Shown here piece by piece: positions 5,846 to 53,161 of a DNA stretch of 64,000 nucleotides (positions within the stretch are counted from its first letter, which is position 1; each line of letters begins with the position of its first letter). The notes below the pieces were generated by a model. It searched no databases and was not told the DNA's origin. It worked only from the letters and a program-made list of their open reading frames with translations. The translations under genes and the position numbers were made by a program. Source of the stretch: Scenedesmus sp. PABB004 (lineage: Eukaryota); assembly GCA_014905635.1 (NCBI GenBank), contig JABVCE010000010.1, positions 62,001 to 126,000 on the forward strand, in the 5' to 3' direction.

Positions 5846-6066
5846 CGTGGAGCTCCTGCCGCGCGCTGTCGCGAGGCCGTCCGCGCGCGAATGGCAGGCG
5901 CGCCTGCGCCCCCTGGCGCGTCTGTGCCACCGCGGCGACTGTGCCAGCTGCTTCCTAAGCGTAGAAGACGTCTGGACGAAGCACGCGCAGGCGCTGCGGT
6001 GGCTCCGGCGAGGGCGCGTCGTTTTTTTGGCGCGTTTCAGCCTCCCGCGCTCCTGCGGGAGGAGAC

Positions 6067-7250
6067 GGCGCACCACGTCGACATGCCCGTGCACCGCCGC
6101 GACGTGCAGCGCGGTGTTGCCGCTCGCGGCCAGGCGCGGCGTCGTGCTCGCCCCCGCGTCCAGCAGCGCCGCCGCGAGCGCCGCCCAGCCGTTGCGCACG
6201 GCAAAGAGCAGCGGGCACCAGCCGGCCGGCTCCGCCGCGTTCAGCGCCAGCTCCAGCGACCGCCGCTCCGCGCCGCCGGCGGCGCGCTCCGCCGCGGCGC
6301 GCAGCTGCGCGGCGTGCGCCTCCGCCGCGGCCAGGTCGCCCGCCCGGCAGGCCGCCAGCAGTGTGGCGCCGTGGGCCCTGCCGGGGCTGAGCGCCTTGCC
6401 CGGCGACGCCGGCAGCGGCGACGGCGGCATCGCGGCGCCGGCGGCAGCGCCTCCTCCTGCCCGCCGCTGCCCGGGCTGCGCGCGCCGGCGCGACCTGCGA
6501 CGCGCCGCGCACGCCGAGGGGCAGCTCCCGCAGGCTGCACGGCACGCAGCCGGCGCGCAGCCCGAGCTACCAGACTGGCGGGCGAGGTGGTCCCGGGTGA
6601 GCGCGGCGGGCGTGCAGCACGCGGGACGCTGCCCCGATGCGGCTTGCGGTGTGTCGCGCGACAGCTCGGCGCCAGCTGGGGCCTCCCCTGCGGACAGGCC
6701 CGACCAGGCTCCGGCGGCGTCGTGCGGCGCCGAACCGCCGCAGCCGCCCCGCTGTGCACGACAGCCTCGCCAGCCTCGCGCGCAGGCGTCGACGGCAGCA
6801 GCAGCAGCAGCAGTGGCCCAGCCCGCGGCGCGGCGCGTTCCCCGGCGAGCTGCCGCCCCACGCCACCCACTCACCACCGCCGCCCAGCGGCGGCCGCGTG
6901 CGCCGCGTGCGCCGCGTGCGCAGCCGCCACCGCCGCCGCGCCAGGGCGGTTGCGGCGCCCCACCGCGCCCCAGCGCTCGCCGCCGCGTCATCACGCCCGC
7001 CAGCAAGCGCTCCGTTGCCTGGGCGGAGAGCGCGGCGCCCAGCGCGCTCTCCCCGCAGCAGAGCCCACGTGGTTTGATGTCACTAGGGCTTTGCTGCTGC
7101 TGCGGCCGGCCGCTCGCGGCCGGCGCCGCGCCGCCGCCCGCCCCCGCCCACCTCGCCCCTCCCCGCACCCGCAGCCGGGTCGCAGCGCCGCCGCGGAGCT
7201 CGCAGCCATGCAGGTCGCCTTCAAGCGCGCGTGCGCGGCCAAGGCCGGCG
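6067..7250 (-). repeat. Inverted repeat 1, left copy (1184 bp): ankyrin 5' coding fragment, shared promoter region and first 14 codons of GS2
   Basis: Reverse complement of 9779-10962 (coordinates sum to 17029 at both ends and at the ATGs). Only about 4 substitutions seen. Confidence 0.95.
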
Positions 7251-9152
7251 CCCGCGCCCCCGCCAGGGTGCGTGGGGGACGCTGGGGAGCAATCCTGCGC
7301 GCCCGTCCGGGCGCCGGCTGTGGCTGCGGGGCCTGCGGCCGGCGCAGCCTCCGCCCGCGCACGGCGCTCGGCGCGGCTTGGGGGCGCGCCCAGGGGTGTC
7401 ATTGGTCGGGGCGGCCGGCCCGGGCCCGGCGGAGCCGGCGTGCGCGCCCCCAGGGCGGCCGCGGCGCCATCCGCCTGATCGGCGCCGCGATGGGCCGGCC
7501 CCTCCGGCCGCACGGCGGCCCCGGCGCGCGCGGCGGCGCGGCGGCGCGCCCCTGGCCGCTCGGGCAGGTTCCGGGGCAGCCTCCGCGACCCCGCCTGCCC
7601 AGCGCTGAGCCGCGCGCGCCCTGCTGCTTGCCTGCAGGCCGGCCGCCGCCTGGCGGTGCGCGTGAACGCCGTCGGCCAGAAGCTGGAGTACCTCTGGTGC
7701 GCCGGGCTGGCCCGCGCCGGCTCCCCACTGCACAGCCGGCCGGCCGCGCGGCTGGGCGCGGTTCTGGCGCGAGACGACTCCGCCGCCAACAACGCCGCCG
7801 CCGCCGCGCAGGTTTGATGGCGGCGAGGGCACGGAGGCCAAGGTGCGCGGCGCGTCGCCCGCGCGCGCATGGCCCCCGCCCGCTGCGGCGCGCGCCCCGC
7901 CGCGCGCCCCGCCGCGCGCCGCGCGCCGCGCGCCGCCCCCGCGCACGCCCGCCCGTCCCGCCCGCCGCCCTGTTGCTGTGGCGCTGCTGCTCAGGGCATG
8001 CTGTTCAACGAGATGCGCTCCAAGACCAAGTGCCTGATGCAGCCCATCGAGAGCCTCAACCCCGCCGACTTCCCCGACTGGAGCTACGACGGCTCCTCCA
8101 CCGGCCAGGCGTCCGGCAACAACTCGGACTGCATCATCAAGTGCGACGCCCCGCGCGCTGCGCCGCCGCGCGCCGCGCCGCCGCGCGCCGCGCCTCCCCG
8201 CCCCGCGCGCCGCCGCCGGCGGCCGCGGCGGCCCCGCTCACGCCCCGCGCGCCGCCCGCGCCGCGCCGCGCGTGCCCGCCAGGCCCGTGCGCGTCGTGCC
8301 CGACCCCATCCGCGGCGCGCCGCACCTGCTGATCATGTGCGAGGTGCTCTCCCCCAACGGCGAGCCGCACCCCACCAACACGCGCGCCGGCCTGGCCGCG
8401 CTCATCAACGACAAGGTCATCAAGGAGGCGCCGCTCTTTGGCTTTGAGCAGGAGTACACGATGCTTAACCGCGGCACCGGCACCGTGCTGGGCTGGCCCG
8501 AGGGCGGCTTCCCCGCGCCCCAGGGCCCCTTCTACTGCGGCGTGGGCGCAAACAGCGTGTTTGGCCGCCCGCTCGCGGAGGCCCACATGGAGGCCTGCCT
8601 CGCCGCCGGCCTGACCATCAGCGGCATCAACGCCGAGGTGGGTGCGGGTGTGGGTGTGTGGGTGTGCGTTTGGCACGGCTCGGCGGCAAGAGGCGGCAGC
8701 CGCGACAGCAGGCGCAGCAGCACGCGCAGCAGCAGGCGCAGCAGCAGGCGCAGCAGCAGGCGCGCGGCACGCGCCCGACGCGCGCCGGCCGCGCCGCGCC
8801 CGCGCGCCGCAGGTCATGCCCGGTCAGTGGGAGTTCCAGATCGGCCCCGTGGGCCCGCTGGAGCTCGGCGACGAGGTCATGATCGCGCGCTGGCTGCTGC
8901 ACCGGCTGGGCGAGGACTACGGCATCACCTCCACCTTTGACCCCAAGCCCGTCAAGGGCGACTGGAACGGCACCGGCGCGCACACCAACTACTCGACCGA
9001 GAGCATGCGCAACCCCGGCGGCATGGAGGTGACCCGCCTTGCCCGCCGCACCCGCCGCGCAGGGCGCGCCCGCGCGCCCGCGCGCGCAGCAGCCGGGGCG
9101 GCGCGCGGGCGGCCCGCGGCGCGCGCGAGGGAGACCGCGCGCCGACGCGCCC

Positions 9153-9186
<34 letters not shown>

Positions 9187-9482
9187 GCGCGCGCTCTGCC
9201 CTGCCCTGCCAGGCGATCATGGCTGCGATTGAGAAGCTGAGCAAGACGCACGCGGAGCACATCAGCCAGTACGGCACGGGCAACGAGCAGCGCCTGACGG
9301 GCAAGCACGAGACGTGCGACATCAACACCTTCCGCTTTGGCGTCGCCGACCGCGGCAGCTCCATCCGCATCCCGCTGCCCGTGCAGCTCAAGGGCTACGG
9401 CTACCTCGAGGACCGCCGCCCCGCGGCCAACGTCGACCCCTACACCGTCGCCCGCCTGCTCATCAAGACCACGCTCCTGTGA
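7208..9482 (+). CDS. GLN2: Glutamine synthetase, chloroplast GS2 / GSII-B type (spliced)
   Basis: Exons join to [62 protein letters not shown]...[11 protein letters not shown]...FGFEQEY...[17 protein letters not shown]...[13 protein letters not shown]...RLTGKHET...[12 protein letters not shown]...[15 protein letters not shown]. Transit-peptide-like N-terminus. Confidence 0.95.
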
Positions 9483-9683
9483 GTGCACGACGGCCCGGCG
9501 CAGAGGGGGAGTGCGTGACGCGCGGGGGAGCTCTCCCTCTCTCCCCCGCCACGTGTGACGGCAGCGGCGGCGCGCGCGCCGCGAGAGGGCGGGCGGCGGC
9601 CGGATTTGCCCGAAACATGGCGGCGGCGCCCGCGGACGCAGCAGCAGCTGCGCACGCGGCTGCTGCGGCCGCCTCGGGGCTGG

Positions 9684-9688
9684 TGTAA
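9684..9688 (+). terminator. TGTAA polyadenylation signal of GS2
   Basis: Chlorophyte poly(A) motif ~200 nt after the GS2 stop; rare in this GC-rich context. Confidence 0.65.
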
Positions 9689-9778
9689 CAAGCTCGCTTG
9701 GCCTGCCGCGGGCGCGGCCAGGCTGACGAGGCGGGGCGCAGCCGGCGGCGCCGTCCGCGGCAGCGCACCGCGGCTCGT

Positions 9779-10962
9779 CGCCGGCCTTGGCCGCGCACGC
9801 GCGCTTGAAGGCGACCTGCATGGCTGCGAGCTCCGCGGCGGCGCTGCGACCCGGCTGCGGGTGCGGGGAGGGGCGAGGTGGGCGGGGGCGGGCGGCGGCG
9901 CGGCGCCGGCCGCGAGCGGCCGGCCGCAGCAGCAGCAAAGCCCTAGTGACATCAAACCACGTGGGCTCTGCTGCGGGGAGAGCGCGCTGGGCGCCGCGCT
10001 CTCCGCCCAGGCGACGGAGCGCTTGCTGGCGGGCGTGATGACGCGGCGGCGAGCGCTGGGGCGCGGTGGGGCGCCGCAACCGCCCTGGCGCGGCGGCGGT
10101 GGCGGCTGCGCACGCGGCGCACGCGGCGCACGCGGCCGCCGCTGGGCGGCGGTGGTGAGTGGGTGGCGTGGGGCGGCAGCTCGCCGGGGAACGCGCCGCG
10201 CCGCGGGCTGGGCCACTGCTGCTGCTGCTGCTGCCGTCGACGCCTGCGCGCGAGGCTGGCGAGGCTGTCGTGCACAGCGGGGCGGCTGCGGCGGTTCGGC
10301 GCCGCACGACGCCGCCGGAGCCTGGTCGGGCCTGTCCGCAGGGGAGGCCCCAGCTGGCGCCGAGCTGTCGCGCGACACACCGCAAGCCGCATCGGGGCAG
10401 CGTCCCGCGTGCTGCACGCCCGCCGCGCTCACCCGGGACCACCTCGCCCGCCAGTCTGGTAGCTCGGGCTGCGCGCCGGCTGCGTGCCGTGCAGCCTGCG
10501 GGAGCTGCCCCTCGGCGTGCGCGGCGCGTCGCAGGTCGCGCCGGCGCGCGCAGCCCGGGCAGCGGCGGGCAGGAGGAGGCGCTGCCGCCGGCGCCGCGAT
10601 GCCGCCGTCGCCGCTGCCGGCGTCGCCGGGCAAGGCGCTCAGCCCCGGCAGGGCCCACGGCGCCACGCTGCTGGCGGCTTGCCGGGCGGGCGACCTGGCC
10701 GCGGCGGAGGCGCACGCCGCGCAGCTGCGCGCCGCGGCGGAGCGCGCCGCCGGCGGCGCGGAGCGGCGGTCGCTGGAGCTGGCGCTGAACGCGGCGGAGC
10801 CGGCCGGCTGGTGCCCGCTGCTCTTTGCCGTGCGCAACGGCTGGGCGGCGCTCGCGGCGGCGCTGCTGGACGCGGGGGCGAGCACGACGCCGCGCCTGGC
10901 CGCGAGCGGCAACACCGCGCTGCACGTCGCGGCGGTGCACGGGCACGTCGACGTGGTGCGCC
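9779..10962 (+). repeat. Inverted repeat 1, right copy (1184 bp)
   Basis: Reverse complement of 6067-7250. Carries the start of the full-length ankyrin gene on + and a truncated GS2 start (ATG 9821) on -. Confidence 0.95.
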
Positions 10963-12698
10963 ACCTCCTGGCGGCGCAGCAGCAGGAGCGCGCGCAGCGC
11001 AGCAGCCCGCTGAGCAGCCCGTGCGGCAAGGCGGGGGCGGCAGCCCGCCGCTGTCGCCCAAGCCGGCGCCCGGCGTCGACGCGCGCAACACCAACGGCGA
11101 CACGCCCCTCATGTTTGCCTGCAGCGCCGGTCACATCGGCGTTGCGGCGCTGCTGCTCAACGTGAGCCGCAGCCGGCTGCGCGCACGCCACAGTCGCCCC
11201 GGTGCACGCGCGCCACCGCCACCGCCGCTCCGCAGGCGGGCGCCGCGCCCGGCGCGTCCAACGCCGTCGGCATCACGCCGCTGCTGGCGGCGGCGGGGCA
11301 CGGCCACGAGCCCTGCCTGCAGCTGCTCGCGCGCCACGCGGGGCCCGCCTGGCAGCAGCTGCTCGGCGCCAAGGACAGCCACGCGCGCACGCCGCTGCAC
11401 TTTGCTGCTGCGTCGGGTGCGCGCCCCAGCGCTGCGGTGGCAGGTGCGCGCTGGCCGGCACGCGGTGTCTGACGCGCGCGTGCCGCCGCCGCCGGCCGCA
11501 GGGCACGCAAGCGTGGTGGCACTGCTGCTGGGCCCTCCTGACGGCGCGAGTGCGCTCGACGTGTTTGCTGTGAGCGCCGCCGGCCGCACCGCGCTGCAGG
11601 AGGCGGAGCAGTCGGGGCACTGCGACTGCGCCCGGTGCGGCTGGCTGCGCGCACGCGGGCCGGGGCACCCCTCGGCTGCCCAGCACCACCTGGACTGCTG
11701 CGCTCACGCTCGCGCCGCTGTCCGCCGCCAGGCTCATAGAGGCCCGCATGGCAGCGGCTGCCGCGGCGGCAGAGGCGGCGGCCGCGCGCCTGCTGCGGGA
11801 CGAGGAGGCCGCCGCGGCGGCGGCGCCGGTGCCTGCGCGCAGCTCCGCCGCCGGCAGCGCCGCCAGGAAGCCTGGCCGCCGTCCGGCGGGGCTCGCCGTC
11901 CCCGATGCTGGCGCCGCGGCGGCGGCTGCAGCCCCGGCGCCGGCGGCACACGCGGCGGCGCAGGAGGATGCCGCGCCCGGCAGCGCGTCGCCGCCGCCGG
12001 GCAAGGCCGTGCCGCGCCCCCCGTCGCCCAGCAAGATCCCGGCGGCGCCGCTGTCGCCGGGCGCTGCGGCGCGCGGCGCCGGCGCGGCGGGCGACGCGGC
12101 GGGCGGCGACGGCTGGACGACCGTGGTCGCAGCCAAGCGCAAGGCCTCGGCCAAGTCCCCAGGGGCTGCAGCAGAGACGGCAGCGGCCAAGCTGCAGCCC
12201 GCCGCCGCCGCAGCAGGGGCGCGGCCAGCGGCTGCGGGTGCGGCGGCCGGCGCGGCTGCGGCGCCGCCGCAGCCGCCGGCGCCGGCCGGGCCGCAGCCGC
12301 TCAGCTACAGCCGCGCGCTGCAGCTGCAGGAGCAGCAGGAGCAGCGGGGGCAGCCGCCGCCGCCCGACCGCGCCGCGTCGCCCGCGCCGGCGGCGCAGGG
12401 CGCGGACGCGCCGGCGTGGTGGGACGACGCGCTCGCGGCCGTCTCGCCCGCCGCGGCGGCGCTGGACCTCCGCCCCGAGCACATGCTGGGCCTCGGACTG
12501 GGCGAGCTCAGCGCCGGCCAGCTGGACGCGCTCGAGCTGCTCCAGCGCACGGTCCTCGCGCAGCTGGCCGACGCGCGGCTCGCGCTCGCCGACGCGCAGC
12601 ACGCCGAGGCGCAGGCCGAGGCCGCGGCGCTGCGCAGCGAGATCGCGGGCCTCGCGGGCCTCGCGCCGGCGGGGCCGGGGGCGAGCGAGAGGGGCTGA
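10599..12698 (+). CDS. Ankyrin-repeat protein with low-complexity middle and C-terminal coiled coil (spliced)
   Basis: Ankyrin motifs GWCPLLFAVRNG, GNTALHVAAVHGHVDVV, GDTPLMFACSAGHIGVAALLL, GRTALQEAEQSGH. Apparent 1-nt frameshift in the G-run at ~11033-11037. Confidence 0.85.
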
Positions 12699-12936
12699 CG
12701 GAGAGGCGGGGGGCTGCCGGGAGCGGCAGGGTTCGGGGCCTGGCGCAGAGCTGACGCTTGAACCGCACCGACCCCCGTGGGACAAAAGCCCGCTCACACT
12801 CCTCCCGCGTTTGCGGAGGCCACGGTCCGCAGCACCGCCCTAGCCGCCGCGCACTGAGCAGTGCAGGCTGCGTGCAACAGCGCCGCCGCGCTCCGCCGCC
12901 GCCCCTGGGCCGCCTGTCGCCCACACGACCGGGCGC

Positions 12937-13841
12937 ATGGCGGCCGTCGATGCTTCACAGGCCCTGGAGGCCGCCGCGCTGCAGCCCTACGCCCACCAGG
13001 CGCGCGGCAGCGCGGCGCGGGCGGCAGCAGCGGCGGGGCGGCGCGCCCCGCTCACGCGCGCGCGCCGCGCGGCCGCAGGTCGGCGGGCACGGCCAGGACA
13101 CCACGCAGCCTCAGTGCTCGCAGGCGCGCACCGGCAGCGGCGCCAGCAGCGCTGCTGGCGGCGGCAGGGGCGCGAGCAGTGCTGGCGGCGGCGTCAGCAG
13201 CGCCAGCGGTGGCGGCGGCGGCGGCGACGCGCGCGCCCGCCGGCGAGCAGAGGCCTTCCTGGCTGGCGTGGCGAGCGGCGGCTTTGACGCCACGCTGGAG
13301 GGGCTCCGCGTTGCGGCCGCGGGCGAGGGCTGGGTGGAGTGCGAGCTCGACGTTGGGGAGGCGCACCTCAATCGCTACGGAACCCTCCACGGCGGCGCGA
13401 TCGGTGAGGCGCCGCTGCGCGCACCGCAGCGCGCGCCGGCTGACCGCCGCCGGGGCTGACCGGCCCTGCCGCCGCCGCCGCCGCGGCCGCGCAGCGACGC
13501 TGGTCGACGTCGTGGGCAGCGCCGCGCTGATTACGTCCGCGGACCGCGGCGGTGTGAGCCTGGGGATAAACACGCTCTTTCTCCGCCCCCACCCGGGCGG
13601 CGAGCGGCTGACCGTGACCGCGACCTTGACGAGGCTGGGGCGCGACGTTGCCTTCGTCGACGTGGCGCTCTGCGGCGCCGGCGGCGCCGTCGTGGCCAAG
13701 GGCACGCACGTCAAGAAGCTCGTGCCGGCATCAGACCTGGGCGCCTTTTTTGCGGCCGCCGAGGCAGACGGCGGCGCCGGCGGCGCGCGGCGGGGGGCGC
13801 TGGAGCTGCTGCGCCAGCGGCCGCCGCGCTCGCGGCTGTGA
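12937..13841 (+). CDS. Hotdog-fold acyl-CoA thioesterase (PaaI/ACOT13-like)
   Basis: HLNRYGTLHGGAI|ATLVDVVGSAAL...GVSLGINTLFL...LGRDVAFVDV...VVAKGTHVK; two introns. Confidence 0.88.
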
Positions 13842-14012
13842 GGGGCCGCGCCGGCGCCGCGCAGCAGGGCGTGCGTGTGCGGCCGGACGAGGAGCGGGCG
13901 GTGGGGACTGCCCGGCGGCGCACGCGGGCCCGGGTTCGGTGCAACGCTGCGCCGCGCGTTGCCCGTGCAGCTGCCGCAGGGGTGCGCACCGCGTTGCACC
14001 GCCACGCACCGC

Positions 14013-16300: not shown

Positions 16301-16507
16301 CGGGCGCGGTGCGCGGGGTGTGGACCTTGAAGGTGTACCGATCGCACGGGCCACTGGCGCTGCCGCCACCGCCGCTGTGCCGCCGCTGTGCCGCTGCTGT
16401 GGCGCCGCCGCTGTGCCGCCGCTGTGCCGCCGCCACTGTGCCGGCTGCCACGCGCATCGGCGCGCGCAGCGGTTGCCTCTGAACAAAACCACAGCCGCCG
16501 CGCAGTG

Positions 16508-17868: not shown

Positions 17869-18003
17869 GTGTGCGTCACAGCGGTCGTTGGCGTTTGACG
17901 TCGTTTCGGCGCCTCAAACGTCGCCGCCGCGCCCGCGTTTGCGATTCCCGCCCGAGCCACGCCAGAGTGACGACCCGACGCCGCCGCCCGCGACCGGCGC
18001 GCG

Positions 18004-20114: not shown

Positions 20115-20285
20115 GCGCCGACGGCCGCCGGGCGGCGTTGCAACTCGAGCCGTCTCCCCCGCCGCCAAGCCCGGGCTGCGGGCATGCAATGGGATCGCCA
20201 CACGTTCAACGGTGCCGCGCGGTGCAGTGCCCAGCCCCCTCCCCCCTCGGCCGCGCCGCTCGCGGGCGGGCCCGTGAGCCCGGGC

Positions 20286-23200
20286 TCACGCGCTCGTCGG
20301 CTCGTCGGCGTCGCCAAAGACAAAGTGTACGTCGACTGTCTCGCCCCTGACCTGGCCGACGGCCGCGACCATCGGGTCGCCGCCGCTGAGCGTGGTGCCG
20401 GCCAGCCGTGCGGCCGTGGGGGCGTCCTTGGCGTCGTCGTCGTCGTTGTCGCTGCCCTTGCCGAAGCGGCTGCTGAGCTTGTCGGCCAGCGCCGCCGCCT
20501 GGGCCTTGAAGTCCGGCACGCTCACCGCCTGCAGGCTGGGGAGCTTCAGGCTCGGCGCCGCGCCGTCCGGCGCGAGCACGGTCGGCAGGGCGGGGACCTT
20601 TTTCAGCACCGCCGCGGCCTGCTGCAGGAGGGAGTCGGGGATGACCAGCGCCTGGGGCGCGGCCGCGGCGGCCGCGCCGTCGGGTGCGGGCCTCGAGAAG
20701 AACTGCGCCGTGATGTTGGTCATGACGATGGCCGGCAGCTTGGGCAGGCCCGGCAGCAGCGCCCGCAGCTTCGCCTCGGCGTCGCCGGCCAGCTCCAGCT
20801 TGGGCAGCGACGCGCGCGCGGCGAGGCCGGAGACCCACTTGCTCACGACGGTTGGCAGGTCTGGCACGGCCCAGCTGAGCGACGCGCCGTGCGCCGGCGC
20901 CGGCGGGGGCGGGGGTGCGTCGGCGGCGGCGTGCGCCTGCTGCGGCACAAAGCGGCGGACGAGCTCCGACAGGCTGGGCAGCGAAACCCCTTCCAGCGAC
21001 AGCGGGGCGGCCTTGCCGGCGTCAGCGTCGGCGGCGTCGCGCACGAGGTGGGGCAGGCTGGACATATTGGGCAGCAGCGCCACAACGCCGGGCAGGGCCT
21101 TGGCAGGGATGGCAAACGACCGCAGCGACACGTTGGCCGGCACCTGCGGCGGGCGCGGCGACGCGACGTGAGGGCGCACGTGAGCGCACCCGGCGCGTCG
21201 CGGCGCGGCTGCCGCCACGCGGCACGCCGCGCCGCGGCTGCCGCCACGCGGCACGCCGCGCCGCGGCTGCCGCCACGCGGCACGCCGCGCCGCGCCGCAC
21301 GCGCCTTGAGCAGCGGCGCGCTGATGTTGGGCAGCAGCAGCGCCGGGGCCTTGAAGCCCGGCACGAGCGCAGCGAGCGCCGCGAGCTTTGCCGTGGGGAG
21401 GGTAAGGTTTGGCACGACGGCCTTGGCGTTCACCGCCGCGATCCAGTCGCGCAGCGCCTCGGCCACGGTCATGTTGACCAGCGCCTTGCCCCACGCGAGC
21501 GAGGGCAGCAGGCTCACGTTCTTGGCGGGCAGGCTCAGCGCGATCGCGTCCCCCGCGTCGGACACGGAGCCGCCGCCCGGCAGCGAGACCGACCACCCGG
21601 GCGAGGGCTTGGCGGGGCCGCCGAAGCCGCAGTCGCAGGCGCGCCAGGCGCGCGCGACGTACGTCCCGCTCGCGTCGTAGTCACCGCCGGCGGGCGGCGC
21701 GGCGCCGGGCTCGGGCTTGTGCCCCTCCGTGGCGATGCAGGGGTGCCCGACCGCGGCGGCGCCGCTCGGGTGCAGCTTGGCGGTCGCGCCCATTGCGACG
21801 ACGCGCCCTGTGCAGAAGCCGCCGATGCCGCTGCCGAGCAAGGCCTTGGACGCGCAGCCCGGCTTGTCCAGCTTGCACGCCAGGTTGGCGCACGCGTCGC
21901 CGGGGCCGCCCACGAGCGGGCCGGGCGTGAGGTTGGTGCCAGAGCAGTCCAGGGCGTCCACCTCACGGCCCATCCCGCCGAGCGCGCAGGAGCTGCTCGG
22001 GCACAGCCCGCCCGAGCACGCCAGGCCGGGCGAGCAGGGGCGACCGCTGGCGCCGGCAGCAGCCGCCGGGGCAGCCGCGGGCGTCGCCGCCGGCTCCGCC
22101 TCGGGCGCCGGCGCGGGGGTGGCCGCTGCTGCGGGGGTGGCCTCTGCTGCGGGCGCAGGCGCAGCCGCGAGCGCCGGCTCAGCAGCGGCTACAGGCGCAG
22201 CCGTGACGTCCACGGCAGCGTTAGGCGCAGGCTCGGTGGCCGGCTCCGGCTCGGCCTTGGCGGCCGGCTCCGTGGCCGGCTCCGGCTGAGCCGTGGCGCC
22301 CGGCTGCGCCGCGGCGGCGGGTGGCACCTCCGTGACGACCGGCTCAGCCGCAGGCGGTGCTGGCAGCGCGGCGTCCGGCTCAGCCGTGGCTCTCGCCTCC
22401 GTGCCAACCACCACGCCGCCGCCGGCGGCGGCGGCCGCATCCACAGGCGCCGGCGCTGCCGCGTCGACAGGCGCCGCCGCTGCCGCGTCGACAGGCGCCG
22501 CCGCTGCCGCGTCGACAGGCGCCGCCGCTGCCGCGTCGACAGGCGCCGCCGCTGCCGCGTCGACAGGCGCCGCCGCTGCCGCATCGACAGGCGCCGCCGC
22601 GGCCGCGTCGACAGCCGCGGCAGCGGCGTCGGGCTTGACCTGCGCGATGCGGTGCGCGTCGCTTGGCACGCCGGGCAGCACGACGGGCGCCGCCAGCTCC
22701 ATCGCCGCGGCCGCCGCGCCAGCAGCGGGCGCGACGAGGTCGTCCACGGTGGCGGGCGCGCCCTGGCAGGGGCGAACCCAGACGACCTGCAGCTGCTGCA
22801 GCGGGCCCTCCACGTGCGCCTTGAAAAAGCCAACGGCCGCGCCGGCGGCCGGCTTGTTGCCCTGTCGGGGCGTGGCGGAGGGGTCGTGAGCCGACCTGGC
22901 CGCGCGGTGGCCGCCGTCGCCGCTGCCGCAGTCGCGCGCGCGCCCGTGCACCTGCAGCGGCACGTCCAGGTCTGCGTCGCCGACGGCCACCGTGCGGCCG
23001 GTGCTGGTGGTCAGCCTCAGGAAGGCGATGCACCTGGGCAGTGATGGCGGCGGGGTGGCGGCGGTGGCGCGGCGGTGCCGGGGCGGCTGTCAGAGCCGAG
23101 CGCCCCCCGAGCCGCGCGGCGCTGGCGGGCGCGGCACTGGCGGGCGCGGCGCTGGCGGGCGCGGCGCTGGCGGGCGCGGCACTGGCGGGCGCGGCGCGCG

Positions 23201-23809
23201 CACTGTGTGATCTTGTAGTCGACGCCGACCACGACCTCGTCCGGCCCCAGCTCCAGGGACTCGGCCGGCAGCGGCGCGCCCTGGCCCAGCAGCGCGGGCG
23301 CGCCGCCGCCGTAGCGCGCGGCCAGGCCGGCGACGCAGCCCGTGGCTGGGTCGTGGTACAGCGTGACCCCAGACAGAGCGCCCGCCAGCTTCCACGTCGA
23401 CTCCTGCTCTACGCCGGTGAATGAGGCCAGCCAGGGCGCGCCAAACATGGTGGTGCTGCTGTCGACGCAGCCGGGATCGCCTGCGGCGACCGCGCACCGG
23501 CCGCGGCTCAGCCGCGCTCGTGGCGGCGGTGCGCGGCGCTGCTGCACGGGTTGAAGCTGGCCGAGAAAAGCTGCCGCAGCAGTCCCGGCGCACGGCACTA
23601 AGGGGGCCAGCCGAGCGGCGCCGGCCGCGCGCGCCGAGCTGCTGCTGTGCGCTGCTGGCCGCGCTGCCGTGCGCGCGCCCCGGCTGCGCCCAGCTGCCGT
23701 GCCCCAGCCCAAGCGGCAGCGTGCCCCCCTCCACACCTGTCACGGAGCTCGCGATGCCCAGCAGCAGCAGCACGCCAGCGGCCAGGAGCTGGCCGGCGAG
23801 GCGCGCCAT
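20286..23809 (-). CDS. Secreted jacalin-like lectin / Cys-rich / Leu-Pro-repeat protein, paralog A
   Basis: Signal peptide MARLAGQLLAAGVLLLLGIASSVTG; jacalin-like LELGPDEVVVGVDYK...CIAFLRLTTSTGRTVAVG...FFKAH...LQQLQVVW; Cys block CANLACKLDKPGCASK...GGFCTGRVVAMG...GHPC...AWRACDC. Confidence 0.8.
22437..22625 (-). repeat. 24-bp coding tandem repeat (PVDAAAAA) x ~8
   Basis: Repeated gcgtcgacaggcgccgccgctgcc. Confidence 0.9.
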
Positions 23810-24340
23810 TGCAGGCCCCTGCTGCCGCGGGCGGGGGCGCGCGGGGGCGGAGCTGGTGCGCAAAAGATCGATCAAGCCAAGGCAACGCTCCCGGGATCCA
23901 GATTGCGACCTGGAGCGCCGTCTGCGGTGCGGGAGGGGCGCCAACCAGATGATGTACGTGGCGGTTTCAGGGCGCCCGCGCGATTGGCGAGCGACGCAAC
24001 TGCGAGGTGTGCCCTCTCGGCCGGCTCGAGCTGCTGAGTGGCCCGTGGAGCTGCCGCGCACTGCGATAGGCGGCGATTGGGCTGCCGCGATTGCGAGCTG
24101 GCAGCGGCGAGGGCGGCCCCGCCGCGCTGCGGCTGGTCAGCGGTCCGTGAGCAGGGCGGGTGCTGATGCGCAGCTGATCTGTGTCGCCTGGCTCGCCTGA
24201 CCAGCCCTGCGGCGCTGGAAGCAGGCGCGCAGGGGCAGCAGCCAGGGGCTGGCGACGGCTCACAGCGCTTGGCCGCCGCGTGGCGCGCTCCACGCAGGCC
24301 GCCATCGCACCAGCACGTCACACAGCTGGTGATCACCGCC
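23508..24340 (-). repeat. Inverted repeat 2, left copy (~833 bp): promoter, signal-peptide exon and most of intron 1 of paralog A
   Basis: Reverse complement of 29131-29964 with a handful of substitutions and small indels. Confidence 0.95.
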
Positions 24341-24906
24341 GCATCGCGCCAGGCCCCTGCTAATGCGGCGCCCCGCCGCCGCGGGCGCGCGGCGCGCCGT
24401 GTGGCGTCCGGCGCCGCCCGTGGTCAGTCGACACAATCGCCGCCGCTCCTACACAATGCGCGCATTCTCTTGGTCTGCAGGCTCAGCGCCGATTGCAGCC
24501 GGCAGCCGCGCGCGCCGCGAGGCAAGCGGCTGGCGCCGCCGGCGGTTGAGCGCTTGCTGGGCCCTGCCGGCCGCCACGCAGCGCGCCCGGCCGACTCGAC
24601 GCGAGGAGCGTGCTTGAGCTTGCCACCTAGGTCGTGTGAACCATCAGCGCCGCTGGCCCGCGTTGTGGAGTCCCGAGCCAGGCTCGCATCAGGCCGCGCG
24701 GCAGCTCGGCAGGTGGGTCCTGGGGCGTGCGATACACTGCCCGGGAGCCGTCGGCGGCCCCCCGGGGCCTCGCACACGCGCCGGCCGGGGAGGAGCCGTT
24801 GTAGTGCTCGGGGCGCGCCCAGCGCTCGCGCGGGCTCGGCGCAGCTCCCTAACGTGCCCACGTGCTCCGGACGGGGCTCGACGCACCGAACGCAGCAGAA
24901 CCGGCG

Positions 24907-27900
24907 ATGGCGGGCGCCCGGCGCGCCGCCGCCGGCTGCGGCGCCGCGCTGCTGCTGGCTGTGCTCGCACTGGCAACAGGTGCGAGCGGGGCGCTGGGCG
25001 CGCGGGCTGGGGGCTTGGGGTGGCTTGGCTAGCTGCTTGAGGCGCGGCGCGGCGCGGCACCTCAGCGGGGCGCGCCGCTCGCCTGCCAGCCGCCGGACCG
25101 CGGCGGTGGCATGGTACGGCAGGCAGCAGGTTCAGAAGCTACAGCAGCACCAGCACCAGCAGCAGCAGCAGCAGGCCCGGATCTCGCCGCAGCGGCGGCC
25201 GGCCGGCTGGGCTGAGCTCCCCCGCCGCGCGCGCCCGCGCGCAGGCTCGCCGTCGTGCGAGGTGCGCGAGAGCAGCAGCGTGATGTTTGGCTCGCCCTGG
25301 AGCCCCAACAACCCCTACTACGTCCAGGAGGCGGCCTGGAAGAACCTGGGCAACATGACCAAGCTCAACCTCTACTACGACGAGGCGCGGCGCTGCATCG
25401 TGGGCGTGAAGCCGACCTTTGGCTGGCAGGCCGCCAACGCGCGCCGCCTCGGCGTCGAGAAGGCCGGCGGCGCGGCGCTGCACGAGAAGGACATCGCGCT
25501 CTCGCCGGGCGAGAGCATCGTCAAGGTGGAGTACAAGTTTGGCAGGTGCGGCGCGGCGCACGTGCGGCGGCAGCGCGACGCGGCCGGCGGCGCGGCGCCG
25601 CCCTGCTCACCCGCCCGGCCGCGCCCCCGCCGCCGCTGCGCGCGCTGTGTCGGCACCCGGCAGCTGCGTGACGTACCTGCGCCTCGTGACGAGCGCCGGC
25701 CGCGCGCTGGCGGTGGGCGACCCCGACGCGCCCGGCCCGCTGCAGTCGAGCGGGCCCGAGGCCGGCGGCGCGGGCGGGTGGCTGGCCTACTTCAAGGGCT
25801 ACACGCACGGCCCCAACACCGACGCCGCCACGGGCCCGCTGGAGCAGCTGCAGCTGGTGTGGGCGACCAAGCGCTGCGGGCGCCCGCTCGAGGTGCAGCG
25901 TACGGCGCAGGGCGGCGAGGTCGTGGCGGAGGTGCCGCCCGAGGCGGTGGCCGCCGGCAGCGACGACGACGACGACGACGACAAGGACAAGGACAAGGAC
26001 GGCAGCACGGCGGCCGGCGCCGGCGGCAGCGTGACCGCGGCCGAGGTCGAGGCGGTGACCACCGAGACGGTCGTGGAGGAGCCGCCGCCGCCGGGCAACG
26101 CCGGCGGCAGCGGCGCCTGCTCCGGCGGCGTGGCGTGCTCGGACGGCATGTGCGCGACGCCCAGCTGCGTGCTTAACGGAATGGGCAAGGTGCGGCGTGC
26201 GGGGGCGTCGCCGCGCGCGCGTGCGGGGGCGTCGCCGCACGGGCAGGCGCCCGCGCCGCTGCACGCCGCCGCGGCGCGCTCGCCCACTTCTCCGGCCGCG
26301 CTGCGTGCGTCGGCCGCAGGACGTGCCCGGCATGGTGTGCTACGGCACCAACATCATCCCCAACCCGCTGCTCGAGATGGTCAACGGCAACCCCTGCGCC
26401 AACCTGGCGTGCAAGCTGGACAAGCCGGGGTGCGCCTCCAAGGGCGGCTTCTGCACCGGCCGCGTCGTCGCGATGGGCGCGGCGTCGCAGCTGCACGCGT
26501 CCGGCCGCGCGCACGTGGGGCACCCCTGCGTCGAGCACAAGGCGCCGCTGCTGGGCCTCGTGCCGGCCGCCGACTACGACGCCAAGGGCACGTACGTGTC
26601 GCGCGCGTGGAAGGTCTGCGACTGCGTGATGGGACTCGCCCTGCCCAAGCTCCCCGGCCTCGGCGCGATCACCGCGACCGTCGGCGTCGGCGGGTCCGGG
26701 TCCGGCGGCGCCAAGTCATTCCCCACGCTGCCCTCGTTCCCCTTCCTGAGCAAGAAGCTGGTCAACATGAGCCTGCCCGACGTGGTCGCGCAGTGGGTCG
26801 CGGCCAACGCGGCCGACGCGGCGCTGCCGCGGCTGAGCCTCGACAAGGGCCTCGCGGCCAAGCTCAGCGGCCTCGTGCCTGACTTCACCCTCCCCGCGCT
26901 CGTGCTGCCCAAGTTCAGCAAGCCCCTGCTCAGCCTGCCCTCCGGGTTCAGCCTGCCCGTCATTGAGCTGCCCGCGGGCAACCACTCGCTCGCCAAGATC
27001 GCGGAGCTCCTGCCCGACATCACCTCCCTGCCCACAATCGTGCTGCCGACCTGGACCGACCTCAAGGCCGCGCTGCCAAAGGTCACCATGCCGCAGGTGC
27101 GGCCGCGCGCGCGCGGGCCGCAGCGGGCGGGCGGCGGCTGGCGGCCGGCTGCGCCACCGGCTGCGCGCGGCTGCACGCGGCCTCCCGATCGCCCGCCCGC
27201 CCACGCACTCGCACTCGCGCCCAGGTCACGGTGAGCAACCTGGACGACTGGGCCGCCTCGTTCGAGGTGCCGCACCTGCCCAAGTTCTCCCTCCCCAACG
27301 CGACGTTTGTGGACGCGGCAAAGGAGCTGGCCGCGGCGGTGCAGCTCAGCCTGCCGCTGCCAAAGTTCAGCCTCGACGCCAAGTCGCTCGCCGCGCTCGC
27401 GGCGGCGCTGCCCGACTTCAAGGCCCCTGCGCTGCTCATCCCCAACGTCAGCCTGCCGCTGCTCAAGCTGCCGTCGCCGTTCCAGCTGCCCGTCGTGACG
27501 CTGCCCCAGGACGCGGCGCTGCTGACCAAGGTCGGCAAGCTGCTGCCGCGCCTCAGCGCGCTGCCGGCGTGGGTCGTGCCCGCGGCGAGCGTGGACTTCA
27601 AGCTCCCGGCGTGGGGCGTCAAGAACGTGACCATCCCCACCTTTGACGCCATCTGGGCGGCGCTCGCGGCCAAGCTGCCCGACGTGTCGGCGCCGCGGCT
27701 GCCCATCAGCGTCACGATCGCGCCGCTCATCAAGCCCGACCTCACGCCGCTCGCCAACGCGCTCGCGGCCGCCAAGAAGGCGCCGTCCGTCGAGGTCAAC
27801 TGGGGCGCGCTGCCCTCGCTGCTGAGTGGCCTCAAGGCGCGCCTGCTGCGCGGCGCCAAGGGCGGCGGCATCGACGTCGCGGGCCTCGTGAGCGCCGTCG

Positions 27901-28955
27901 CGGCGGACAACGTGTTCACGCAGCTCGGCGACGGCTTTGAGGTCTCCTTCGAGGCGCCCGCCGCGCTCGCGCAGTGGATCGCGGGCGTGGCGCAGCACTC
28001 CAACGTCAGCACCGTCGCGCTCGACAAGCCCAGCCTCGCCGCGCTCTCCGCCGCGCTGCCCGGGCTGATGCCCAAGTCGGGCGCCGCGCTGCTGTCGGTC
28101 AACATGAGCGCGCCGTTCGTCAAGGCGCCGCGCGGGGTGGCCGCGGTCACCGTGCCCGACGCGGCGCTGCCGCGCGTCGCGGCGGTGCTGCCCAACCTCA
28201 CCTACGCGCCCACGCTCGTCGCGCCGGCGGGCGACGACGCGCTGGCCCGGCACCTCACGCTGCCCGACGTCGCGCACCCGAGCCTCGTCGCCGCGATCAA
28301 CCAGGTGCTCGGCAAGGCGCGCGACCAGGGCGTCAAGGCGGGCGGCCCGCCCGACAGCAACCTGGTCGCGGTCAAGCTCGACGCGCCGCCCGCCGCGGCG
28401 GCGGCGAAGCCGGTGGAGGTGCCCACCGCGCCCGCGGGCGCGGCGCCGGTGGCGCTGGAGCCGGTCGCGGAGCCCACACCCGTGCCCGCCGCGGAGGTGC
28501 CCGCGCCCGCCGCCGCCGAGCCGGCCGCGGCGGGGGCCGCCGCCGCGCCCGCGGTGACAGTGGAGCCCGCGGCCGCGACCGCGCCCGCCGCCGCGCCGCC
28601 GGTGGGCGAGGCGTCGGTTGCCGAGGCCACCCCGGCCGACGTGCTGGGCAACGGCGCCGCGCCGGGCGCCACGGCCGCGGCGGCCGAGGCGCAGCCGGTG
28701 CCCGTGGCCGCCGCGGCCGCGGTGCCGGCGGGCGCGGCGCCCGGGGCCGCGGCGCCCGCGCCCGCGGGCGCGGCGCCGGCCGACGCGGCCGCCAAGCCCG
28801 AGTCTGGCATGCTGCTGGACGACGAGGGCGCCATGATCATGACCGGCGCGGGGCCGGCGACGGCCTACATGGACCCCGCCGAGTTCTACGCGCTCGACGC
28901 CGAGACGCAGGCCGCGTTCCGGGCGATCTTTGCCGGCGAGCCCATCCCGGCGTGA
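24907..28955 (+). CDS. Secreted jacalin-like lectin / Cys-rich / Leu-Pro-repeat protein, paralog B
   Basis: Signal peptide [25 protein letters not shown] with the same intron-1 position as A and C; IALSPGESIVKVEYKFG|SCVTYLRLVTSAGR...WLAYFKGY...LEQLQLVW; same Cys block. Confidence 0.82.
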
Positions 28956-29130
28956 CGGCGCGGCGGCGCGCGGAGGGGGCGGGCGATTGATTGACTGAGC
29001 CTTGGCTCGACAGACCCCAGGGGGCTGGGGCGGCGGGAGGGGCGGGACGGTTGGCGGGCGGCCGGCGCCACGTGAGCGGGGCGGCGCACTAGCGGCCGCC
29101 CGAACGCGGCAGGGGGGCATGGGGCGTTGG

Positions 29131-29964
29131 GGCGGTGATCACCAGCTGTGTGACGTGCTGGTGCGATGGCAGCCTGCGCGTGGAGTGCCACGCGGCGGCC
29201 AAGCGCTGTGAGCCGTCGCCAGCCCCTGGCTGCTGCCCCTGCGCGCCTGCTTCCAGCGCCGCAGGGCTGGTCAGGCGAGCCAGGCGACACAGATCAGCTG
29301 CGCATCAGCACCCGCCCTGCTCACGGACCGCTGACCAGCCGCAGCGCGGCGGGGCCGCCCTCGCCGCTGCCAGCTCGCAATCGCGGCAGCCCAATCGCCG
29401 CCTATCGCAGTGCGCGGCAGCTCCACGGGCCACTCAGCAGCTCGAGCCGGCCGAGAGGGCACACCTCGCAGTTGCGTCGCTCGCCAATCGCGCGGGCGCC
29501 CTGAAACCGCCACGTACATCATCTGGTTGGCGCCCCTCCCGCACCGCAGACGGCGCTCCAGGTCGCAATCTGGATCCCGGGAGCGTTGCCTTGGCTTGAT
29601 CGATCTTTTGCGCACCAGCTCCGCCCCCGCGCGCCCCCGCCCGCGGCAGCAGGGGCCTGCAATGGCGCGCCTCGCCGGCCAGCTCCTGGCCGCTGGCGTG
29701 CTGCTGCTGCTGGGCATCGCGAGCTCCGTGACAGGTGTGGAGGGGGACACGCTGCCGCTTGGGCTGGGGCGCGGCAGCTGGGCGCAGCCGGGGCGCGCGC
29801 ACGGCAGCGCGGCCAGCAGCGCACAGCAGCAGCTCGGCGCGCGCGGCCGGCGCCGCTCGGCTGGCCCCCCTTAGTGCCGTGCGCCGGGACTGCTGCGGCA
29901 GCTTTTCTCGGCCAGCTTCAACCCGTGCAGCAGCGCCGCGCACCGCCGCCACGAGCGCGGCTGA
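29131..29964 (+). repeat. Inverted repeat 2, right copy (~834 bp): promoter, signal-peptide exon and most of intron 1 of paralog C
   Basis: Reverse complement of 23508-24340. Confidence 0.95.
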
Positions 29965-52670: not shown

Positions 52671-53161
52671 GGGCGCGGGGCCGCCCGCGCCGCTGTTCGC
52701 GCGGCCGATGACGCCGCTGCTGCTGCCGCAGCGATTGCGCGCCCGCCTCCTCGAGCAGAAGCGGAATGTTCTGCGCCGCCTCGATCGATCGCTGGTGGCG
52801 CGGGCGTGGGCGCGGCGACGGCGCGGCGGCGCGAGCGCGGTCGCGAGGCAGCGGCGCGGCGCAGCGGCAGAAGCGAGGAGCGGGACTGGCGCCACTGGAA
52901 AATGGTGGTGGCGGCGGCGGCGCGCTCAGCTATGCGCGGCGTGACGGCGATTTTGCGACTGCGCGCCGCTCCCTCTTGACGCCGCGCCCCGCGGTCGCCC
53001 CCACACAAACCTGAGCGCACCCCAATCGCGCTCCCACCCACACGGACACGCGCGCCCGCGGCCGCCGCGCGACCTCATCGCCGCCGGTCCGCGTGCCGCG
53101 CCCCAGGCCGGCCCAGCAGCGCGCCGGGGGCCGCCCCCAGCCCGTGCCTGCGACCCCCCAG

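What the first reader, a model, noticed from the sequence alone, without database searches (positions are those of the whole stretch)
6067..29964. The same architecture twice in 24 kb: one intact gene bracketed by near-identical inverted copies of a host promoter and first exon
Seen: locus 1 is [gene<-][IR 6067-7250][GS2->][IR 9779-10962][ankyrin->]. Locus 2 is [lectin A<-][IR 23508-24340][lectin B->][IR 29131-29964][lectin C->]. In both, the IR consists of host promoter plus 5' gene sequence pointing outward, so the left and right flanking genes have the same upstream region. The two IR families are unrelated to each other, and I see no transposase or target-site duplication. Established: inversions from staggered breaks or template switching leave inverted duplications at both breakpoints, and long near-identical IRs allow homologous flip-flop inversion. 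Inference: this may be a recurrent promoter-copying or invertible-cassette process that co-regulates neighbours while leaving the central gene intact in either orientation.
Basis: partly seen in the sequence, partly recalled or inferred. Interest (0 to 1): 0.8.

Follow-up and report, generated by a model that had tools for sequence, protein, structure and literature searches.

The report
Two duplicated gene heads, two origins
Two nearly identical inverted copies of a promoter plus first exon really do flank one gene each in this very GC-rich green-alga-like DNA, but they look like ordinary leftovers of a small inversion and of sequence copying between old gene copies, not a special switch.

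Summary
Both inverted repeats are real. IR1 is 6067-7250 / 9779-10962: 1184 bp with 4 transitions. IR2 is 23508-24357 / 29114-29964: 2 transitions plus one 1-nt indel in its first 775 bp.

The shared architecture is only superficial.

Locus 1: the arm is the whole 777-bp region between two head-to-head genes, plus the first 364 nt of the ankyrin CDS and the first 43 nt of the glutamine synthetase (GS2) CDS. Only the left-inner and right-outer junctions are native. This fits one history: GS2 and the ankyrin gene were once divergent around one promoter. A ~3.7-kb micro-inversion of GS2 then duplicated the 1184-bp break interval, as in the staggered-break model.

Locus 2: both arms are working heads (promoter, signal-peptide exon, most of intron 1) of two ancient paralogs, A and C, whose bodies are only 41-52% identical. 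The outer repeat boundary lies 27 nt (A) and 37 nt (C) before exon 2. This fits homology-guided copying (ectopic gene conversion) better than inversion.

I found no transposase, recombinase, target-site duplication or RNA family. No reads and no genome were available, so assembly, flipping and genome-wide recurrence are untested.

Verdict: new examples of known kinds, low to moderate interest.

The parts
6067..7250 (.). IR1 left arm (1184 bp)
   Evidence: complementary to 9779-10962 with 4 mismatches. Both boundaries are sharp, and there is no homology beyond them.
9779..10962 (.). IR1 right arm (1184 bp)
6067..6430 (-). Dead copy of the ankyrin gene head: ATG at 6430, 121 codons plus 1 nt. 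It runs on into non-coding-like sequence and stops at 5816-5818, giving a 204-aa open frame.
   Evidence: Pfam Ank hits. GC3 is 118/121 inside the arm but 66/83 after the junction, which is the background level.
6431..7207 (.). Left copy of the 777-bp region between the ankyrin ATG and the GS2 ATG (inferred bidirectional promoter). Here it serves GS2.
   Evidence: Positions of the two ATGs. Promoter function is inferred, not shown.
7208..9482 (+). Glutamine synthetase type II gene with an N-terminal extension (GS2-like). Exon 1 is 7208-7267, the stop is 9480-9482, and a TGTAA signal lies at 9684.
   Evidence: Translation. tblastn of relative P0001 matches its residues 4-378. Homologues carry PF03951 + PF00120. 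TGTAA.
9779..9821 (-). Dead copy of the GS2 start (43 nt of CDS). It points back into the 3' end of GS2.
   Evidence: the reverse complement starts with the same 14 codons, then diverges.
9822..10598 (.). Right copy of the 777-bp inter-ATG region. Here it serves the ankyrin gene.
   Evidence: Mirror of 6431-7207.
10599..12751 (+). Ankyrin-repeat gene. Exon 1 starts at 10599 and the first clear donor is at 11163. The frame changes near 11032-11046, next to a G5 run. The 3' end was not mapped.
   Evidence: Pfam Ank. GC3 is 27/28 in the 28 codons that cross the arm boundary, so this junction is native. The frame change was read.
347..5503 (-). Left neighbour: a long low-complexity gene with no Pfam family. 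A probable non-coding 5' exon lies between about 5521 and 5800, directly downstream of the dead ankyrin head.
   Evidence: The GTGAGT donor on the minus strand near 5513-5520 was read (inference).
23508..24357 (.). IR2 left arm: about 550 bp upstream sequence, exon 1 (ATG 23809, minus strand) and all but the last 27 nt of intron 1 of gene A.
   Evidence: Public gene model P0135 joins this exon 1 to A's exon 2.
29114..29964 (.). IR2 right arm: the same module as the head of gene C (ATG 29662), ending 37 nt before exon 2.
20286..23809 (-). Gene A: signal peptide, weakly jacalin-like N-domain, Ala/Pro-rich repeats, Cys-rich domain and Leu/Pro repeats.
   Evidence: P0135 (997 aa) begins with the same head and exon 2.
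24907..28955 (+). Gene B, the central paralog, with its own different head (25-aa signal-peptide exon of the same length and phase).
29662..33627 (+). Gene C, a paralog whose body is nearest to B and to proteins of other algae, but whose head is ~99% identical to A's.

Best explanation
The two repeats are independent footprints of ordinary structural evolution in a green-alga-like nuclear genome with about 80% GC.

Locus 1. GS2 and the ankyrin gene once stood head to head and shared one 777-bp promoter region. A micro-inversion of about 3.7 kb (the GS2 body plus the shared region) took place. Its right-hand break was staggered over 1184 bp, or an equivalent replication template switch occurred. 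That interval was filled in and now sits at both ends in inverted orientation. Both genes kept a complete head. Two dead fragments remain: 364 nt of ankyrin CDS in front of the left neighbour, and 43 nt of GS2 CDS behind GS2.

Locus 2. A and C are ancient inverted paralogs. Their 5' module (promoter, signal-peptide exon and most of intron 1) has been made identical by homology-guided copying between them, that is, ectopic gene conversion, either ongoing or recent. Their bodies stayed diverged.

In both loci the ~99.6% identity reflects young age, arm-to-arm conversion, or both. Homologous recombination between the arms could flip the central gene without harming it, but nothing suggests that this is a regulated switch.

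Shown: the repeats, their exact content, and which junctions are native. Inferred: the ancestral order, the mechanism, and promoter activity.
For: Locus 1:
- The arm contains both gene starts.
- GS2 exon 1 runs across the left-inner boundary in the same way as in relative P0001 (its N-terminal part aligns to 7578-7706; the text around the boundary was compared by eye).
- Ankyrin coding bias continues across the right-outer boundary (GC3 27/28). It falls to background after the left-outer boundary (66/83).
- Alignment scores of the flanks beyond both IR1 boundaries are at shuffle level (23 vs 21.3+-3.2; 25 vs 26.5+-4.3).
- Only the order L - GS2(reversed) - arm - ankyrin gives both genes a head with a single copy of the arm (inference).
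- Ranz et al. 2007 (PMC1885836; abstract and passages read) report inverted duplications of unique sequence at 17 of 29 Drosophila inversions. They are one-sided in 12 and reach about 1.9 kb. This matches the pattern here.

Locus 2:
- A, B and C are 37-54% identical in three domains.
- A's N-domain is nearest to P0128 of another organism (46/95), and C's Cys-rich domain is nearest to P0122 (70%). The A/C split is therefore old.
- Homology continues beyond the outer boundary into exon 2 (score 80 vs 25.6+-3.6).
- The boundary lies 27 nt (A) and 37 nt (C) before exon 2, so it is nearly in register.
- No remnant of a displaced older head lies next to either arm. This points to replacement rather than insertion.
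- Carson & Scherer 2009 (PMC2720389; abstract read) show that segment-limited conversion can persist for over 100 My.

Both loci:
- No direct repeat adjoins the boundaries; the longest shared words are 4-6 nt and not in register.
- There are 0 recombinase or transposase families in 39 long open frames between 1 and 20.3 kb.
- There are 0 Rfam matches in 5-31 kb, and the window's single ARAGORN tRNA call lies outside the arms.
- All 4 IR1 differences are transitions, 3 of them at CpG. This looks like real mutation rather than read error.
Against: - No outgroup order, no reads and no whole genome could be examined. The ancestral state of locus 1 is therefore a deduction.
- Conversion in locus 2 needs pre-existing similarity. 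Exon 2 next to the tract is now only about 41% identical in protein, and no homology is detectable beyond the inner boundary (score 30 vs 24.9+-3.8). Either the heads have evolved in concert for a very long time, or the event was not strictly homologous.
- The outer boundary of IR2 is abrupt, with no gradient.
- The two repeats are similar in size and in divergence (4/1184 against 2 substitutions plus 1 indel in 775) and lie only 12.5 kb apart. That would also fit one common, recent cause.
- The signal-peptide comparison did not show which paralog donated the head (AC vs P0128 score 33, AC vs B 31).
Confidence: 0.55

Rival explanations
1. One common, lineage-specific break-and-copy process, or a single complex replication-based event, acts at gene 5' ends. 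Breaks or stalled forks near promoters are repaired by template switching to the opposite strand. This produces inverted copies of promoter plus first exon a few kb away. Locus 2 would then also be a recent non-homologous event in which C's (or A's) old head was lost.
For: There are two such pairs in 24 kb and no other long inverted pair in 64 kb. They are similar in size (1184 and ~850 bp), in spacing (2.5 and 4.8 kb) and in divergence (~0.3% each). Every boundary lies at or within the 5' part of a gene, except IR2's right-inner one, which lies 158 bp past B's stop codon. A and C are too diverged next to the tract for easy homologous invasion.
Against: The anatomies differ: dead fragments in locus 1, two working heads in locus 2. 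Any simple inversion or insertion model for locus 2 leaves one paralog headless or should leave an old head behind, and none is seen. The near-register position of the IR2 outer boundary in both paralogs (27 vs 37 nt before exon 2) is unexpected for non-homologous joining. The counts are too small (4 vs 2-3 differences) to show equal age. No older, decayed examples occur in the window.
Confidence: 0.2
2. An assembly or haplotype artefact: one or both inverted copies do not exist in the real chromosome.
For: The assembly seems to carry single-base indel errors in G runs. One is the ankyrin frame change next to a G5 run at 11032-11036. Another is the only indel between the IR2 arms, which lies in a G run. 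No reads could be laid.
Against: The arms differ by transitions (3 of the 4 in IR1 at CpG), so they are not copies of one consensus. All four junctions of each locus join unique flanks. The native junctions give intact genes: GS2 against P0001, and the ankyrin coding bias. Public models P0135 and P0121 use both IR2 heads. Fold-back read artefacts give spacer-less palindromes at contig ends, not internal pairs with 2.5-4.8 kb unique spacers (my own knowledge).
Confidence: 0.07
3. A programmed invertible cassette: a regulated flip of the central gene that changes expression of the gene or of its neighbours.
For: Long, near-identical inverted arms allow homologous flip-flop. After a flip, GS2 or gene B would face the other neighbour.
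Against: The promoters sit in the arms, not in the invertible segment, so the central gene is driven identically in both orientations (geometry). No recombinase family was found in 39 long frames. The arms are 0.85-1.2 kb of ordinary gene sequence, not short recombination sites.
Confidence: 0.03

Closest known systems
Inversions with inverted duplications at the breakpoints (staggered-break model; Ranz et al. 2007, PMC1885836)
   Same: Locus 1: unique host sequence (gene 5' ends) is duplicated in inverted orientation at the two ends of an inverted segment. The duplication is one-sided and within the reported size range (up to ~1.9 kb). There is no repeat or transposon at the breaks.
   Different: The inverted segment is tiny (about 3.7 kb, one gene), whereas the Drosophila cases are chromosomal inversions. 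The duplicated interval is exactly a shared bidirectional promoter, so both genes survive. The copies are 99.7% identical, against ~88% on average in Drosophila. The outgroup state is unknown here.
Ectopic gene conversion / segment-limited concerted evolution between paralogs (e.g. Carson & Scherer 2009, PMC2720389); also arm-to-arm conversion in large palindromes such as those of the human Y chromosome (recalled, not read here)
   Same: Locus 2: a sharply bounded, near-identical tract that includes non-coding sequence, between old paralogs whose remaining sequence is strongly diverged. The paralogs are inverted and close together.
   Different: The homogenised part is the regulatory and signal-peptide module only, and it ends just before the first domain-coding exon. 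No homology is detectable at the inner edge. Whether the identity is ongoing or one-off is not known.
Partial and chimeric gene duplicates (review: Katju 2012, PMC3449122; passages read)
   Same: The dead ankyrin head (a 204-aa open frame made of 121 ankyrin codons plus recruited flanking sequence) is a classic partial duplicate with recruited sequence.
   Different: Here it is a by-product of an inferred inversion. Nothing shows that it is expressed.
Replication-based template switching (FoSTeS/MMBIR) producing inverted duplications (recalled, not read here)
   Same: It can give the same end product as staggered breaks: an inverted copy a few kb from the original.
   Different: I saw no junction microhomology beyond a possible 5-nt match (AGGAG) two bases outside the IR1 outer boundary. 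The sequence alone cannot separate this from the staggered-break route.
Bacterial invertible promoter switches (fimS, Hin) and the flip-flop of plastid inverted repeats (recalled)
   Same: Inverted repeats bracket a segment that can invert. As with the plastid inverted repeat, a flip would be functionally neutral.
   Different: No site-specific recombinase was found, the arms are long, and the promoter lies in the arms rather than in the segment. No on/off outcome is possible.

Membership tests
Inversion with breakpoint inverted duplication (staggered breaks) | Inverted copies of otherwise unique, non-transposon sequence bracket the inverted segment | tested here: met
   Each IR has exactly two copies in the window. 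The arms are host gene heads. Copy number in the rest of the genome could not be checked.
Inversion with breakpoint inverted duplication (staggered breaks) | One native and one novel junction per arm, in the pattern that a single inversion predicts | tested here: met
   Locus 1 only. The left-inner junction (GS2) and the right-outer junction (ankyrin, GC3 27/28) are native. The left-outer junction (GC3 66/83) and the right-inner junction are novel, and the flanks are unrelated.
Inversion with breakpoint inverted duplication (staggered breaks) | The same junction pattern at locus 2 | tested here: not met
   Both outer junctions are functional gene heads. Either single-inversion history leaves A or C without a head, and no old head is present in 24340-24920 or in the 158 bp after B.
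Inversion with breakpoint inverted duplication (staggered breaks) | An outgroup carries one copy and the opposite orientation | not testable with these tools
   No genome is held. The best metagenome contig is only 73% identical in GS2.
Ectopic gene conversion between paralogs | The identical tract is embedded in older, diverged paralogy | tested here: met
   Locus 2, outer side: score 80 vs 25.6+-3.6 in shuffles, and bodies 37-54% identical. Not met on the inner side of locus 2 (30 vs 24.9+-3.8) or at either side of locus 1.
Ectopic gene conversion between paralogs | Tract ends lie at equivalent positions in both copies, and nothing is displaced | tested here: met
   Locus 2: the boundary lies 27 nt (A) and 37 nt (C) before exon 2, and no remnant head is present.
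Ectopic gene conversion between paralogs | Paralogs within the species are more alike in the tract than orthologues between species | not testable with these tools
   No full-length C-type orthologue with an N-terminus was found among the 83 hits. An exon-2 search found no protein at E <= 0.001.
Site-specific invertible DNA switch | A recombinase gene nearby and short inverted recombination sites | tested here: not met
   0 recombinase or transposase families in 39 long frames of 1-20.3 kb (frames split by introns could be missed). The arms are 850-1184 bp.
Site-specific invertible DNA switch | Orientation decides expression | tested here: not met
   The promoter and start codon of the central gene (locus 1), or of the outer genes (locus 2), lie in the arms. 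A flip therefore restores the same gene structure. Expression itself was not measured.
Transposon or composite element | Terminal repeats with target-site duplication and a transposase | tested here: not met
   No direct repeat adjoins the boundaries; the longest shared words are 4-6 nt and not in register. No transposase was found.
Jacalin-like lectin (PF01419) for genes A, B, C | Pfam gathering score reached | tested here: inconclusive
   Only C's exon 2 hits, at E 0.0038 and 18.1 bits against a cut-off of 22, covering profile positions 11-79 of 136. The domain would be split by an intron, and the joined exons could not be submitted.
Type II glutamine synthetase | Full-length similarity to proteins carrying PF03951 + PF00120 | tested here: met
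   Green-algal homologues are up to 93% identical over the 118-aa exon. tblastn with P0001 matches its residues 4-378 in five pieces.

The most novel reading that the evidence does not exclude
In this extremely GC-rich alga, gene starts are preferred break or fork-stall sites. Their repair repeatedly copies the promoter-plus-first-exon module in inverted orientation a few kb away. That would be a lineage-specific mutational process. It would split bidirectional promoters, re-head paralogs, place active promoters in front of or antisense to neighbours (here antisense to GS2), and leave flip-flop-capable cassettes across the genome.
Probability: 0.12. Interest if true: 0.65.

Novelty: new member of a known kind. 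Interest (0 to 1): 0.3.

Why it matters
Locus 1 would be a clean, single-gene example of how an inversion with a staggered break can resolve a shared bidirectional promoter into two private copies without damaging either gene. It also plants an active promoter upstream of one neighbour and antisense to GS2, a key nitrogen-assimilation gene. Locus 2 shows a regulatory and secretion module kept identical on two otherwise long-diverged surface-protein genes, so expression control and protein function evolve separately. Neither is new in kind. The finding would become important only if a genome-wide survey showed many such pairs at gene starts.

Tried and rejected
- Whole-genome search: no genome is held for this window.
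- Public sequencing runs: none was listed for 5001-15000, and no RNA holder was listed.
- Earlier notes of this scan: nothing turned up by place, by relatives or by words.
- Metagenome scan with the 118-aa GS2 exon: 80 loci were kept, the best only 73% identical. No close relative was found, so no synteny test was possible.
- Protein search with C's exon 2: 1189 candidates, none at E <= 0.001.
- Protein atlas with B's Cys-rich exon: no usable hit.
- Pfam on single exons of A, B and C: 0 families at E <= 0.01 for 4 pieces. Only the weak Jacalin hit appeared among 8 pieces at E <= 5.
- Direction of head transfer from signal-peptide similarity: not resolved (AC-P0128 33, AC-B 31, B-P0128 30).
- Tree of the Cys-rich domain (34 rows, 122 columns, quick method): 18 of 31 inner branches are open and A sits on a long branch. 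It was used only to show that C is nearer to foreign proteins than to A.
- Search for a displaced old head next to the arms: none was seen.
- Transposon reading: rejected.
- RNA gene or tRNA in the arms: none. No tandem array lies within the arms.
- The Scenedesmus preprint found by the literature search uses 'inverted duplication' only as a class of large rearrangement, so it is not relevant.
- The synonymous nature of all 3 ankyrin-CDS differences was considered as a sign of selection on the dead copy. I rejected this as not significant, because the changes are mostly CpG transitions at third codon positions.

Full report
WHAT THE WINDOW IS

The window has 74-84% GC throughout. Its genes have GT-AG introns and third-codon-position GC near 98%. 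The glutamine synthetase exon at 8284-8637 finds green-algal proteins as its best named hits: Haematococcus, Chlamydomonas, Gonium and Chlorella at 71-75%. Unnamed proteins reach 91-93%. This is therefore nuclear DNA of a very GC-rich green alga or a close relative of that group. No whole genome is held for it. No public sequencing run was listed for it. Earlier notes of this scan hold nothing on it.

THE OBSERVATION

A repeat search of the whole window finds only two long inverted pairs. A sensitive self-BLAST finds nothing else that is both long and similar.

- IR1 is exactly 6067-7250 against 9779-10962. It is 1184 bp without gaps and has 4 mismatches.
- IR2 is 23508-24357 against 29114-29964. 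Its first 775 bp hold 2 transitions and one 1-nt indel in a G run. A small cluster of changes follows at 24283-24300, then 42 identical bases, then the similarity fades.

The two repeat families are unrelated to each other.

ANATOMY OF LOCUS 1

The arm is not just 'a promoter and a first exon pointing outward'. It contains three parts:
- the first 121 codons plus one base of the ankyrin gene (ATG at 10599 on the right arm, mirrored at 6430 on the minus strand of the left arm);
- the whole 777 bp between that ATG and the GS2 ATG;
- the first 14 codons plus one base of GS2 (ATG at 7208 on the left arm, mirrored at 9821 on the right arm).

The arm is thus the complete shared region of a head-to-head gene pair, together with both gene starts.

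Of the four junctions, two are native.
- GS2 reads on from the left arm into an intact gene. tblastn with relative P0001 matches its residues 4-378 in five pieces, and its N-terminal text runs across the boundary position in the same way.
- The ankyrin frame reads on from the right arm with unchanged coding bias (27 of 28 third positions G or C).

The other two junctions are novel.
- After the left-outer boundary the ankyrin frame runs into sequence with background composition (66 of 83). It stops at 5816, giving a 204-aa open frame that still scores as ankyrin repeats.
- After the right-inner boundary the 43-nt GS2 start abuts the region downstream of GS2's own TGTAA signal at 9684.

Beyond all IR1 boundaries the flanks are no more alike than shuffled sequence.

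Only one single-copy arrangement gives both genes a head: left neighbour, GS2 on the minus strand, the arm, then the ankyrin gene. The present order follows from inverting GS2 plus the arm while duplicating the arm. This is the one-sided version of the staggered-break inversion described for Drosophila. There, 17 of 29 fixed inversions carry inverted duplications of unique sequence, 12 of them on one side only, with sizes up to about 1.9 kb (PMC1885836; abstract and passages read). A replication template switch would give the same product, and the sequence does not separate the two routes. The only possible junction microhomology is a 5-nt match two bases outside the outer boundary.

Two consequences follow, both inferred. 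First, the right arm carries a copy of the GS2-side promoter that points back into GS2 and could make antisense RNA. Second, the left arm carries a copy of the ankyrin-side promoter and head just upstream of the probable non-coding first exon of the left neighbour. That exon was read, and the neighbour itself has no Pfam family.

ANATOMY OF LOCUS 2

Here both arms are working heads. Each holds about 550 bp of upstream sequence, a 74-nt first exon that encodes a 25-residue signal peptide, and all but the last 27 nt (gene A) or 37 nt (gene C) of intron 1. Public gene models use both heads. P0135 starts with this exon joined to A's exon 2. P0121 contains C with the same start, although it wrongly fuses B and C into one 2192-aa protein.

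The bodies of A, B and C are old paralogs.
- They are 37-42% identical in the first domain, 43-52% in the second, and 52-54% in the Cys-rich domain.
- A's first domain is nearer to P0128 of another organism (46/95) than to B (34/92) or C (38/92).
- C's Cys-rich domain is nearer to P0122 (70%) than to B (67%) or A.

The A/C split therefore predates at least one speciation, yet their heads differ by about 0.3%. B has its own head of the same length and phase but a different sequence (10 of 22 aligned residues).

A single inversion with duplication does not explain this locus. Whichever arm is taken as the original, the other gene would have had no head before the event. No displaced head lies beside either arm.

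Three points favour homology-guided copying, that is, ectopic gene conversion:
- the old head was replaced rather than pushed aside;
- the outer boundary falls at nearly the same place in both paralogs;
- old homology continues from there into exon 2 (score 80 against 25.6+-3.6).

Segment-limited conversion that lasts very long is documented (PMC2720389; abstract read).

There are also points against. The neighbouring exon is now far too diverged for easy strand invasion. The outer boundary is abrupt. Nothing is alignable beyond the inner boundary. A one-off templated repair is therefore a serious alternative for this locus.

WHAT IS NOT THERE

- No direct repeat adjoins the boundaries of an arm or of a whole unit.
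- None of 39 long open frames between 1 and 20.3 kb matches a recombinase, transposase or reverse transcriptase family. Only ankyrin repeats and one 4HBT thioesterase were found. Frames broken by introns could be missed.
- There is no Rfam family in 5-31 kb, no tRNA in the arms and no tandem array inside the arms.

ARTEFACT?

This could not be tested with reads. Several observations argue against it.
- The IR1 arms differ by four transitions, three of them at CpG, and the IR2 arms by two transitions. The arms are therefore not one consensus written twice.
- The junctions give intact genes.
- The pairs are internal and have unique spacers.

The assembly does seem to have single-base errors in G runs. 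The ankyrin frame changes next to a G5 run at 11032-11036, and the only indel between the IR2 arms lies in a G run. Small indels should therefore not be over-read.

ONE PROCESS OR TWO?

The similar size, spacing and divergence of the two pairs, and their closeness to each other, are suggestive. However, the counts are tiny, and the anatomies point to different routes. The window holds no older, decayed examples. Recurrence is a genome-wide question that cannot be answered here. I give the common-process reading about 0.2.

FLIP-FLOP

Recombination between arms of this length and identity is plausible. This follows from geometry for any such pair. Because the promoters lie in the arms, a flip would not switch anything. 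I therefore see no support for a regulated cassette.

VERDICT

These are new examples of known kinds of structural change. They are tidy and instructive but not surprising, unless a genome-wide survey shows them to be common.

Noticed in passing
window 11025-11050: The ankyrin reading frame shifts by one base between exon-1 sequence and the next ankyrin repeat, next to a run of five G (11032-11036). It is probably a one-base assembly error, possibly a real frameshift.
   Followed up: partly
window 24907-33627; protein P0121: A public 2192-aa gene model fuses genes B and C. It splices from B's stop codon region into C's 5' untranslated region inside the right IR2 arm. With so few stop codons at 80% GC, this is likely a prediction artefact.
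   Followed up: partly
window 6083, 6350, 6362, 7016 (and mirror positions): All four IR1 differences are transitions, three of them at CpG. The three inside the ankyrin CDS are all synonymous (His, Ala, Thr codons). Three of the four A/T-ending states are on the left arm, which holds the dead ankyrin head.
   Followed up: yes
window 51465-52693: A two-copy direct tandem duplication of about 600 bp at 88% identity, with no obvious reading frame.
   Followed up: partly
window 22434-22618 and 23114-23197: Gene A holds a 24-nt tandem array (7.7 copies, 95% matches) that encodes repeats of PVDAAAAA. A 15-nt array (5.6 copies) lies in the intron after its exon 2.
   Followed up: no
window 12861-13838: An open frame with a 4HBT thioesterase domain (E 3.6e-09) lies between the two loci.
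   Followed up: no
window 53572-53672: ARAGORN calls a 101-nt 'tRNA' with a four-base anticodon on the minus strand. It is most likely a false call in GC-rich sequence.
   Followed up: no
window 9684 and 19469: The green-algal polyadenylation motif TGTAA occurs only twice in the first 35 kb: once 202 nt after the GS2 stop codon, and once on the minus strand at 19469.
   Followed up: no
window 7066-7100 (mirror 9929-9963): A short island of lower GC with a CACGTG motif lies inside the shared inter-ATG region about 110-140 bp upstream of the GS2 ATG. It could be a core promoter element.
   Followed up: no
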